Assembly (NCBI RefSeq): GCF_018350175.1
Contig: NC_058375.1
Span: forward strand, 189,906,001 to 189,970,000
From: Felis catus
Taxonomy: Eukaryota
DNA length: 64,000 nucleotides
Direction of reading: 5' to 3'
Positions 16,533 to 52,376 of the stretch are shown here, one piece after another (the first letter of the stretch is position 1; each line of letters opens with the position of its first letter). A program made the translations under genes and the position numbers. The notes beneath the pieces are model-generated. The model searched no databases. It saw only the letters and a list, made by a program, of their open reading frames with translations, and was not told the origin of the DNA.

Positions 16533-16737
16533 TAAGATGGGGAGATTATCTTGGATTATATAAGTGGGACCAATGTAATTATAAGGGTTTTGAAGGGTAT
16601 ATGACGGAGACAAGAGGGTCAAAATTAGAGAAAGGAGATATGACACTGGAATGATGCAATTCGAAGATGAAGGAAGAGGCCATGAGCAAAAGAATGTAGA
16701 CTTCTAGAAGCTGGGAAAAGTAACAAAAAAAAGGGGG

Positions 16738-16798
16738 GGAAGGAAGGAAGGAAGGAAGGAAGGAAGGAAGGAAGGAAGGAAGGAAGGAAGGAAGGAAG
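16738..16798. repeat. (GGAA)n microsatellite, about 15 units
   Basis: Directly visible. Confidence 0.95.
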
Positions 16799-16833
16799 AA
16801 AGAAAGGAGAGAAAGAAAAAGATTTTCCTCCTT

Positions 16834-28882: not shown

Positions 28883-29319
28883 TAACTCACAAAACGCTGG
28901 CTATCGTCTGAGGCAGAGATTCAAGCTGGTTATGCATAAAGGGGCAAACTCCTGCATTCGCTGTATCTCCTAATGAGGCTCCATTTGGTTCTCACATGCT
29001 GGGGTTTTCTGCCTCAGAATCTACATCACAAAACATACCAGTTTGCTCTCTTTCTTGCCTCCCCCGAGTATCATAATTTGACACAATGATGAAAAATATG
29101 GAGATGCCATTGCGATTTTGATTCTCCACCATTTCTCAATGTTACAGAAGTTTCAGGAAGGCTCACTCAGCTCACAGCCCGGCAAAAATGTACCTGCTGA
29201 ACCAGGAACCCTGCATGCTTCACGGGGAGTCTATGCCACGCACCTAAATCCCCCAAAGCATTTCTTGAACACCGCTGACTTGACATCAGTGGCCCTCTCT
29301 TTGCCACTCGTAGTATGGT

Positions 29320-29560
29320 GGTTATTTTCTGTTAATCACCTCCCTTCATTCATTCTCCACCACTCTCTGTCTTCCCTTGTACCCAAGCAGTGTGGCCCCT
29401 TGTGGATGGCATCACCCAGGCTCCTTGCCAAGGAGAAGCCCCGCAGGAGGTCATTGGTGGGGAGAGAGTGGGGTCAGAGTAGTTTTTCCTTCACTCTTCA
29501 ACTTCAGTGTTTGGCCTCCTGGAGTAGTTATGTTCCTCCAGAATTAAAAATACACACCAG
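29320..29560. mobile_element. ERVL-class LTR fragment (LTR16 group)
   Basis: ggatggcatcacccaggctccttgcc...ggaggtcattggtggggagagagtgggg. Confidence 0.45.
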
Positions 29561-29569
29561 GAAATCCCT

Positions 29570-30640
29570 CCTCCTAGGCTCCAGCTCTTGCTTACTTCAT
29601 GTACTAACATTTCCTCTACTAACCTTTAGTACTTGATTTGCCAATATGCCTCACCATCCTTTAATTGTCCCTTAATTCTGTCCATACCCATGCAAAGCAT
29701 CCCTCCAATTAGGGCTCTTCCCTTGAACCTGTGTGCAAATTCTGTTTCCCCCTGGATGCAGGTAGAACCACCTGTCTGGGCTGAGAGTCCTGCCCCCAGA
29801 ATTCTGGTTTTAGTATTAAGAGAATTTTGCTTCAAGTCCCCCTTGTTACTGGTCTGGTCTGTTCTTGGGTCTTTGCCGCTAGTAAGTCACTCAGCATCCC
29901 TCTGAGATCATGCGATCATTCAGCTGATCGCTGATCAGCTGATCATTCTGATGAATGATCATGCTGATCATTCATCATGCTGATCAGATCAGCATCCCTC
30001 TGAGATCATGCGGTGGCCCCATTCTGTTAACTAGTTGCCTGTCTTGTGAACTTTGGCCTTGTTCCTGAATGGGGCACCTTGCCTGGTACCCGAGACCTTC
30101 TAGAGCTTGAAACTTGCTTTCATCGTGATAACTTCCCCCGTCCCAAGCCCTGGCGTCTGAATTCCCACTGAAAACTTTCCTTCTCAGTATGTTCACCTAG
30201 TTACCTAAATAGTACCTGCTTTTGGTTTCCTTTCTGCTTTATTACCATTGACTCTGTATCCATGAAGACAATGGCTTGCCGGTTCAACCAGGATGACCAC
30301 CCGTTGCTTTTGCGATATTCTCCAGATGGCATTTATTACCTGTTTCCCTGGACTTGCCACCCCAGATCCACTGCCTAGGATCAGAATTCTCCTCTCATGT
30401 GCAATCTTCCTAATGTTTTTGTGTACATCTCTAAAGACAGCTGCCTGCCAGGACAACCACTGATGTCCTCCCATATAATTTTTAGATACTGTGTCCAAGC
30501 TGCTGTTCGACCGATTAATGACAGCTCCCCACAACCTAACTGACCAATAGCCACCTACTTCACTGAACCCACATCTGAATACCAACCAGTCATTGGCAGT
30601 CCCGAACTTTTGAGGGTCCACCAGTTTGTAGTAGAGTCAT
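29570..30640 (-). mobile_element. Degraded ERVL-class internal (gag-like) remnant
   Basis: Adjacent to an ERVL LTR fragment; the minus strand reads ttg aac cgg caa (LNRQ), as in recalled ERVL gag; weak similarity only. Confidence 0.4.
29891..30012. repeat. Exact 24-bp direct duplication enclosing a 74-bp scrambled filler
   Basis: tcagcatccctctgagatcatgcg at 29891-29914 and 29989-30012; 8 GATC sites in 29914-29990. Confidence 0.95.
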
Positions 30641-30929
30641 TCCAGTGACAATTCTAAAACAGCCAGTCAACAAGCCTTCCTTCTTCAAAACGTACTTTTA
30701 AATTTGGTGTCAACCAGCTGCTACCTCTGTCACCAACATAATCCCAGAACAATCCCTGACCCCAAACCCCACTAAGATCAGCAGGCTACTTGGCTCAGAG
30801 GGATTATGGCTAACTAGTATACTCTTTCTTATTTAAGTAATGAATTCAGTGGTTTTGTTTCAGTTATTGAATGCTGATACCTTCCCTCCACAATATAAAA
30901 TAGCACCTTTTGGCAACCTAAGAGTAGAA

Positions 30930-32350: not shown

Positions 32351-32682
32351 TCATTCCTATTTGTGATGTCAGCCTGGACACAGGAGGATTAACAGAACAT
32401 TCCTAAGTTAGCTCCCTTCCCAGGATACTTGTGGAGGCGTTTGAAGATTCCCACACACTCCTGGATGTTGGCTAGCCACTGCGCACTTCCCACATTGGTT
32501 ACCTTCTACTCGCCATGTCATGGATTGAGGTAGCAAGACAACTTTGGCAGCTTGGGTCTTAAATTGCATAAGGGAAGCACTGGTAAAGGATTCATCAATG
32601 TATGAGCGTGTTACCTGCCGTGTCAAAAGAAACTGAACTTGCTAAATATATAAATATACTGTCTTGGTGATAAACCATATTT

Positions 32683-32686
<4 letters not shown>

Positions 32687-32732
<46 letters not shown>
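32687..32732. repeat. (TA)23 microsatellite
   Basis: Directly visible, followed by poly-T. Confidence 0.95.
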
Positions 32733-32735
<3 letters not shown>

Positions 32736-32764
32736 TTTTTTTTTTTTTTGCTCATTTGGTGCTG

Positions 32765-51889: not shown

Positions 51890-52296
51890 GGGCCCACACG
51901 AGTTCCATGAGGAGAAGCCACCGCTTAAACATGAATACACGTCCTTCCCCTCTACGGATAATAGAAGTATCATCGAAGGCTCAGATGGGAAGAGTCTAAT
52001 GGAAAGACATTTTAATAAGCTTCCTTGGTAGCTCCTTTTTGTCCGCAAGTGAGGTCCTTAGCTCTGCTGCAGGCTGAAGCCCTAGTCTTCCTGCTCACCC
52101 AGAGCCGGTGTTGAGTGCCTGCTTCTCACTCACACAGCACAGTTCTCAGGAAAGTTCACGGGTTTTCCAGCACTGTCTTGATTTACAAGTTATTTCCTGT
52201 TTTGTTCTGAAGAGGCAAATATGGTGTGGAGGCTCAGGAAGGTTAAGGAAGAGCCTGTCTGGATCACAGAGCATATCTGTGAACACCCACAGCTGT

Positions 52297-52298
<2 letters not shown>

Positions 52299-52340
<42 letters not shown>
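52299..52340. repeat. (AC)21 microsatellite
   Basis: Directly visible. Confidence 0.95.
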
Positions 52341-52348
<8 letters not shown>

Positions 52349-52376
52349 AAGCAAAAACAAACAGAGCTAAAAAGGG

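What the first reader, a model, noticed from the sequence alone, without database searches (positions are those of the whole stretch)
29891..30012. Exact 24-bp duplication enclosing a 74-bp filler scrambled from local GATC motifs
Seen: two identical copies of tcagcatccctctgagatcatgcg (CpG intact) flank a filler with 8 GATC in 77 bp. The filler contains a 14-bp palindrome tgatcagctgatca (29932-29945), gatcattca twice (29914, 29966) plus its reverse complement tgaatgatc (29952), and catgctgatca twice (29960, 29976). Its atgctga is the reverse complement of the flank's tcagcat, and gatcatgc is a direct flank copy. Known: iterative direct and inverted copying of sequence next to a break, with a short duplication, is the signature of polymerase theta-mediated end joining with templated insertion. 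Inference: a recent germline staggered-break repair with many rounds of snap-back synthesis, unusually long, written into an ancient ERVL remnant. It creates new 98-bp sequence that is strongly self-complementary.
Basis: partly seen in the sequence, partly recalled or inferred. Interest (0 to 1): 0.7.

Follow-up and report, generated by a model that had tools for sequence, protein, structure and literature searches.

The report
Polymorphic patchwork DNA-repair scar
A 98-base insertion in apparently non-coding DNA of a mammal, made of a 24-base duplication plus 74 new bases built from that duplication's own short words, was likely written by a repair polymerase at a staggered chromosome break; it is real and probably still varies between individuals, but it is a known kind of repair scar with no sign of function.

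Summary
Every detail of the observation checks out. The insertion is real: 20 of 24 listed runs hold all sampled words. It is derived: a distant organism's contig lacks it. One raw read of the same species skips exactly these 98 bases, so it is probably polymorphic (a single molecule). The filler draws on the duplicated 24-mer (5-mers cover 69 of 74 bases; six equal-sized neighbours cover 0-24) and on its own earlier product; about 10 copy steps rebuild it. No distant donor was found. This fits iterative primer-template switching at a staggered break, as in the patchwork inserts of polymerase-theta end joining. The enzyme and the strand extended are inferred, and plain duplications at such breaks are Pol-theta-independent in mouse cells. 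GATC is not special, and the form recurs: a 15+65-base twin lies on another contig, and this scan noted a 207-base case on other DNA (e1-9098777, unchecked). The ERVL label could not be confirmed. Verdict: a clean, fairly long new member of a known class; interest low.

The parts
29891..29914 (.). Left copy of the 24-bp exact duplication (likely one single-stranded overhang of a staggered break)
   Evidence: exact, not extendable
29915..29988 (.). 74-bp patchwork filler of 4-11-nt direct and inverted copies of the 24-mer's two ends and of its own earlier product
   Evidence: 10-step parse; 5-mers of the 24-mer cover 69 of 74 bases
29989..30012 (.). Right copy of the 24-bp duplication
29932..29945 (.). 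Perfect 14-bp palindrome in the filler
   Evidence: (I14)
29949..29977 (.). Perfect 12-bp stem with 5-nt loop: the clearest fold-back copy of newly made sequence
   Evidence: (12-nt inverted step); lies within I1
29977..29995 (.). Perfect 9-bp inverted repeat with 1-nt spacer spanning the right junction: fold-back copy of the start of the right 24-mer
   Evidence: I16
29891..29988 (.). The 98 bases missing from the empty allele (one 24-mer plus filler)
   Evidence: depth table of run X23, reproduced by five reads including one 79+72 = 151-nt split read; organism B contig has 41 letters where the window has 153
30514..30870 (-). Right-hand flank with one diverged look-alike elsewhere in the genome (62% over 369 columns): an old interspersed repeat, family not established
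   Evidence: score 176; 20 shuffles reach at most 43

Best explanation
This is a real, derived 98-base insertion, probably still polymorphic, that was likely made in one germline repair event at a staggered double-strand break with 24-nt overhangs, where a repair polymerase (most likely polymerase theta) would have extended a free 3' end through about ten short rounds of template switching before the ends were joined. Shown: the duplication; the empty ancestral state; that the filler's words come from the two ends of the 24-mer and not from the DNA beside it; that the longer pieces copy the filler's own earlier product in both orientations. Inferred: two nicks 24 nt apart on opposite strands gave each end one copy of the 24-mer. 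Instead of re-annealing, a 3' end mis-primed on 1-4-base matches (the 24-mer's two ends share complementary 4-5-base words), copied 4-11 bases from the other overhang or from itself, let go and re-primed. After 74 bases the ends were joined with little or no microhomology, and fill-in fixed both copies. No function is implied.
For: Real: 20 of 24 listed runs hold all 136 sampled words, from 9 studies; 14 rows are flagged as possible sources, the 6 unflagged rows come from 4 samples. Run X19 has one contig spanning the 431 bases without a difference (the tool notes it may be the source). Derived: the organism B contig (under 90% alike) joins 29838 to 29992 with 41 letters between; an empty site predicts 55, a filled one 153. 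Polymorphic: five reads, one split 79+72 = 151 nt and skipping exactly 29891-29988, reproduce all 29 depth bins on both tracks of run X23. Template confined to the duplication: 5-mer cover 69 of 74 from the 24-mer against 5, 0, 0 (left) and 22, 0, 24 (right) from six neighbouring 24-mers, concentrated on its two ends. 1 of 2928 random 24-mers explains the filler as well; among GATC-containing ones 31 of 2990. Primed parse with microhomology of 2 or more: 15 steps, reached by 0, 1 and 28 of 1000 shuffles that keep 2-, 3- and 4-mers. No donor: a genome search returns only the site itself (1 candidate scored); the longest match in 264 kb around is 13 nt, chance about 12.6. [quoted passage not shown]
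Against: The enzyme cannot be read from sequence. Plain duplications at 3'-overhang breaks in mouse ES cells are mostly NHEJ- and Pol-alpha-primase-dependent, not Polq-dependent (PMC8355091), and TMEJ-made duplications are almost all joined at microhomology (PMC5730883), whereas the final joint here has little. Reported Pol-theta inserts are short (median 7 bp, occasionally over 25 bp; PMC4912351), and Osia et al. set long multi-template germline inserts apart from TMEJ (PMC8421209). Once 4-mer content is fixed the parse is only weakly better than shuffles: 161 of 2000 unprimed; 506, 28 and 221 of 1000 for microhomology of 1, 2 and 3 or more. So much of the signal is vocabulary, and the step order is not unique. 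Top versus bottom strand is unresolved (difference reached by 164-784 of 1000 shuffles). With self-copying allowed, 330 of 2928 random sites parse as well. Polymorphism rests on one read, below the tool's listing threshold; X24 gave 0 reads. The organism B piece may be a paralogue.
Confidence: 0.68

Rival explanations
1. Replication-based serial template switching (MMBIR-type complex templated insertion, serial slippage): a stalled or broken fork switched templates several times near this site and returned 24 nt upstream, so the duplication is the last switch rather than a relic of two overhangs.
For: Complex germline templated insertions of 25 bp or more are common in people: 33 of 103 and 26 of 99 events in two individuals, up to five templates each (PMC8421209, passages). 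The outcome can look the same. A 7-nt piece of the filler also matches the right flank just outside the duplication (R1).
Against: Fork models predict templates from DNA on either side of the site; here they are almost confined to the 24-mer and the new strand. About ten switches of 4-11 nt exceed the five templates reported.
Confidence: 0.17
2. Stepwise growth: an ordinary short duplication arose first (NHEJ with Pol-alpha-primase fill-in, or slippage), and the filler grew over generations by further slippage and hairpin correction, as a young degenerate minisatellite.
For: Tandem Repeats Finder calls overlapping arrays here (periods 7, 16, 25, 27; 68-80% matches). Among 39 other hexamer-triple loci there is a range of short forms with 1-5 steps.
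Against: No single period fits. Both 24-mers are identical, CpG included, and an exactly empty allele appears to survive, which favours one recent event. Inverted pieces are needed for the shortest parse (10 vs 13 steps).
Confidence: 0.1
3. Insertion of a small mobile element or a piece copied from a distant site, with a 24-bp target-site duplication.
For: Exact flanking direct repeats look like a target-site duplication. The genome search scored only one candidate, so a donor is not strictly excluded.
Against: No poly(A), no terminal repeats at the filler's ends and no T-rich nick site. No second copy found. The filler is built from this 24-mer's words, which a foreign element would not be.
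Confidence: 0.03
4. Assembly or library artefact, for example ligation junctions from a GATC-cutting proximity library.
For: Dense GATC. No raw read over the filler's interior was seen: X23 has zero depth there and X24 gave no reads.
Against: 20 of 24 runs from 9 studies and years 2016-2025 hold every sampled word, and an independently assembled contig spans it without a difference. Triples of other hexamers are about as common genome-wide.
Confidence: 0.01

Closest known systems
[quoted passage not shown] 2021 PMC8654963; van Schendel et al. 2016 PMC5068794; Kent et al. 2016 PMC4912351; passages seen)
   Same: Several short stretches copied from break-proximal DNA in both orientations, stretches repeated within the insert, short primer matches at the switches.
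   Different: Here there is no deletion, the insert is 74 bp (median 7 bp in Kent et al.), about ten steps, mostly copied from its own product, and it is a natural heritable allele whose enzyme was not tested.
Small tandem duplications from paired nicks, including TMEJ-made ones with in-cis templated inserts (Schimmel et al. 2017 PMC5730883, passages and one discussion section; Schimmel et al. 2021 PMC8355091, passages)
   Same: Exact short duplication with no loss of sequence, as from a staggered break; an insert between the copies is described for the TMEJ route.
   Different: Most such duplications have no filler and are NHEJ/Pol-alpha-primase products; the TMEJ ones were seen in NHEJ-deficient cells and are joined at microhomology.
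SD-MMEJ loop-out, snap-back and trans synthesis (Khodaverdian et al. 2017 PMC5728401, passages)
   Same: Short direct and inverted primer repeats next to the break drive the inserted sequence, which becomes part of longer repeats.
   Different: The passages seen describe mostly single rounds at induced breaks in flies; this needs many rounds.
Complex germline MMB-TI (Osia et al. 2021 PMC8421209, passages)
   Same: Heritable, polymorphic, multi-template local insertions of 25 bp or more in a mammal.
   Different: Up to five templates there, each long enough to map; here about ten pieces of 4-11 nt confined to the duplication and the new strand.

Membership tests
TMEJ patchwork templated insertion | Insert made of several stretches identical to break-proximal DNA | tested here: met
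   5-mers of the 24-mer cover 69 of 74 bases; 1 of 2928 random 24-mers does as well. Longest flank match is only 8 nt.
TMEJ patchwork templated insertion | Both direct (trans, loop-out) and inverted (snap-back) copies, and stretches repeated within the insert | tested here: met
   10 steps with both, 12 inverted only, 13 direct only; 12-bp stem and 13-nt direct repeat.
TMEJ patchwork templated insertion | Microhomology priming at each switch | tested here: inconclusive
   With 2 or more bases: 15 steps, reached by 28 of 1000 4-mer-preserving shuffles; with 1 or 3 bases, 506 and 221 of 1000.
TMEJ patchwork templated insertion | Genetic dependence on POLQ | not testable with these tools
   Needs a cell assay.
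Paired-nick small tandem duplication | Exact duplication of the sequence between the nicks, ancestral state single copy, no loss of flank | tested here: met
   the split read skips exactly one copy plus filler.
Paired-nick small tandem duplication | Copies directly adjacent | tested here: not met
   74 bases lie between them; it is the compound form.
Complex MMB-TI / replication template switching | Templates mappable in the surrounding reference DNA beyond the junction | tested here: not met
   No 9-mer of the filler matches the flanks within 60 bases; longest match in 264 kb is at chance level.
Retrotransposon-type insertion with target-site duplication | Poly(A) tail, T-rich nick site and a donor copy elsewhere | tested here: not met
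   None seen; no second copy (search not exhaustive).
Minisatellite | One repeat unit in head-to-tail copies | tested here: not met
   Four competing periods with 68-80% matches.
ERVL remnant (flanks) | Significant similarity to ERVL gag/pol or to a curated repeat family | tested here: inconclusive
   No retroviral Pfam match at E up to 1 in six frames read with X at stops; 3 weak matches (best E 0.007) to 14 retroviral-type RT/RNase H loci; one frame finds only itself; one 62% look-alike of the right flank. No repeat library on hand.
Known structured RNA | Rfam score at or above the gathering threshold | tested here: not met
   4 matches, 16.6-21.1 bits against thresholds of 56-80.

The most novel reading that the evidence does not exclude
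This is one of a genome-wide, under-catalogued class of mammalian germline scars in which a polymerase trapped on a short overhang with self-complementary ends feeds on its own product and writes 60-200 bases of sequence that existed nowhere before. The class could be counted from single assemblies, would give a natural record of germline polymerase-theta activity, and could seed new hairpins and minisatellites.
Probability: 0.25. Interest if true: 0.5.

Novelty: new member of a known kind. Interest (0 to 1): 0.27.

Why it matters
As a single locus it matters little: no coding or known-RNA signal, no sign of function. Its value is as a clean natural specimen. Both alleles seem to exist, the duplication is exact, and the filler's templates are bounded by the duplication, so it shows directly how new sequence can be written at a break. 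With its twins it offers a search rule (exact duplication plus self-compressible, partly inverted filler) for measuring how often this happens in mammalian germlines. It also gives a defined 24-nt substrate for testing whether polymerase theta, rather than a replication fork, makes long patchwork inserts.

Tried and rejected
GATC-specific cause: rejected. Triples of TGATCA number 122 per strand, ACTAGT 176, and the non-palindromic TGACTA 77/76 and ATCAGT 85/90, at similar single-word frequencies in 157 kb. Independence predicts about 5 (hand arithmetic). Palindromic words are 1.6-2 times commoner as triples, but only two pairs were tested. The count of 21 of 39 triple loci enclosed by an exact duplication of 10 or more bases (background 5 of 600) is largely circular, because the repeated hexamer often lies in the duplication; I do not use it as support. 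L011 (15+69) was set aside as a simple-repeat tract. Direction of synthesis: the bottom strand parses shorter (10 vs 12; 15 vs 17) but not beyond shuffles. Unbiased density: in 863,212 bases (window plus 80 stretches of 10 kb), 235 non-simple exact duplications were tested and 2 passed the filter: this feature and L144, which on inspection is a long-period tandem repeat. That gives fewer than about 4 such scars per Mb (hand arithmetic). Gene context: 14 of the 20 open frames of 120 aa or more had no Pfam match; 6 were not scanned in that call, and short exons would be missed. ERVL tests were inconclusive. Rfam matches were chance-level. Paper searches returned nothing; (listings only) showed no title on a catalogue of natural mammalian duplication-plus-patchwork scars. 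The library lacks most subscription journals and I opened no supplements, so this is no claim of absence from print.

Full report
Observation. The sequence is as described. The 24-mer occurs exactly twice, at 29891-29914 and 29989-30012, cannot be extended, and encloses 74 bases. Eight GATC lie in 29914-29990, and the window has no other comparable cluster. All the named motifs are at the stated places. The repeat finder adds a 9-bp perfect inverted repeat across the right junction and a 30-nt, 80% complementary arm pair. The 122 bases fold better than 199 of 200 shuffles. Tandem Repeats Finder gives four competing periods, none clean.

Is it real? 20 of 24 listed runs hold all 136 sampled words of 29300-30600; they come from 9 studies, and 14 rows are flagged as possible sources of this DNA. 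The ranking favours carriers, so it gives no allele frequency. Four runs were laid on 29740-30170. X19 has one 3957-base contig spanning the stretch with no difference. X24 gave no read. X23, picked by species label only, gave five reads and zero depth over the filler. Its depth table is reproduced in all 29 bins on both tracks by five reads, one of which covers 29812-29890 and 29989-30060: 79+72 = 151 bases, the run's read length, skipping exactly 98. It is one molecule, below the tool's threshold for listing joints, and slippage between 24-bp repeats during library preparation is possible, so I call polymorphism probable, not proven. X21, a different organism under 90% alike, joins 29838 to 29992 with 41 letters between; empty predicts 55, filled 153. 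Whether orthologue or paralogue, it shows the older state lacked the filler.

Where did the filler come from? Not from afar, as far as tested: the genome search returns only the site (one candidate scored), and the longest match in 264 kb around is at chance length. Not as long copies of the flank either: no 9-mer matches within 60 bases. Its vocabulary is that of the duplicated 24-mer: 5-mers of it cover 69 of 74 bases, against 0-24 for six neighbouring 24-mers, and the cover falls on the 24-mer's two ends. 1 of 2928 random 24-mers and 31 of 2990 GATC-containing ones explain it as well. The longer pieces copy the filler itself: a 12-bp stem and a 13-nt direct repeat. Read from the right-hand end, ten pieces of 5, 7, 4, 4, 11, 9, 11, 8, 10 and 5 bases rebuild it; the short pieces come first and the long, self-copied ones later. 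This beats shuffles that keep 1-, 2- and 3-mers (0, 0 and 17 of 2000) but only weakly those that keep 4-mers (161 of 2000). With primers of 2 or more bases required, 15 steps are needed, reached by 0, 1 and 28 of 1000 shuffles; with 1 or 3 bases the 4-mer control is not beaten. The exact order and the strand extended are therefore not determined.

Mechanism. An exact duplication with no loss, and templates bounded by that duplication, is what a staggered break gives: each end carries one copy, and those copies plus the new strand are the only single-stranded templates (inference). Repeated mis-priming, short extension and release would then give the patchwork. This matches published polymerase-theta behaviour: cis, trans and untemplated modes, median insert 7 bp (PMC4912351, passages); patchwork inserts from iterative primer-template switching (PMC8654963; PMC5068794; passages); loop-out, snap-back and trans synthesis (PMC5728401, passages); and TMEJ-made duplications with in-cis inserts at 3'-overhang breaks (PMC5730883, passages and one section). 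Duplications with junction inserts in worm germlines are also Pol-theta-dependent (PMC7368036, passages), and a zebrafish preprint describes Pol-theta inserts as often patchwork (10.64898/2026.02.02.703001, passages). Against: plain duplications at such breaks form without Polq (PMC8355091, passages), and complex germline templated insertions in people were assigned to an MMBIR-like route (PMC8421209, passages). I put 0.68 on a single iterative end-joining event, with Pol theta the likeliest but untested enzyme, 0.17 on fork switching and 0.10 on stepwise growth.

How unusual? Triples of one hexamer within 12 bases number 122 per strand for TGATCA and 76-176 for three other words, so GATC is not special. 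I examined all 39 distinct loci among the first 50 of the 122 places listed. One, L035, is a twin: a 15-base exact duplication around a 65-base filler, 9 steps, 54 of 65 bases covered by 5-mers of its own duplication against 0-17 for neighbours. L050 (18+9) and L033 (13+12) are short forms with inverted fillers. L010 is a 32-base scrambled insertion absent from 5 of 5 paralogous copies aligned. In 863 kb scanned without selection no other long case passed, so long forms are uncommon but recurrent. The scan's notes list a 207-base case in this genome (e1-9098777; not checked by me).

Context. The ERVL label was not confirmed. Six frames around the site have no retroviral Pfam match; comparison with 14 RT/RNase H loci gave three weak matches; one frame finds only itself. 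The right flank has one 62% look-alike elsewhere, so it is probably an old interspersed repeat. 14 of 20 long open frames scanned had no Pfam match, and Rfam gives chance hits only. Nothing suggests function.

Verdict. It is a new, clean, fairly long member of a known class of repair scar. Interest 0.27. The bolder reading, a countable class of self-feeding germline synthesis scars, has probability about 0.25 and would merit about 0.5.

Noticed in passing
L035:259-353 (G000:C2, stretch from 121074186): Twin scar: 15-bp exact duplication around a 65-bp filler built mostly from the duplication's words (54 of 65 bases by 5-mers), 9 copy steps. No empty allele was sought.
   Followed up: partly
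L010:1489-1530 (G000:C1:84216759 region): 32-bp scrambled insertion with direct and inverted pieces inside an abundant repeat; absent from 5 of 5 paralogous copies aligned. The repeat looks like LINE-1 (recalled, no call names it).
   Followed up: yes
L050, L033, L015, L040, L045 (around place 300; L015 around 1500): Shorter duplication-plus-local-filler forms with 1-5 steps, several with inverted-only pieces; they suggest a range from single switches to long patchworks.
   Followed up: partly
whole genome G000: Triples of a hexamer within 12 bases are some 15-35 times commoner than independence predicts, and the two palindromic words tested are 1.6-2 times commoner than the two non-palindromic ones.
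   Followed up: partly
L144:5446-5690: GC-rich tandem repeat with a period near 100 bases; it passed the scar filter as a false positive.
   Followed up: no
window 30514-30870 and L080: Diverged look-alike (62%) on another contig; the flanks are probably an old interspersed repeat. Short pieces of the minus-strand frames recall retroviral pol motifs by eye (recalled; no call supports it).
   Followed up: partly
window 16726-16825, 32676-32750, 52276-52350: Ordinary microsatellite tracts (GGAA, AT, AC), the only other 74-mers in the window as compressible as the filler.
   Followed up: no
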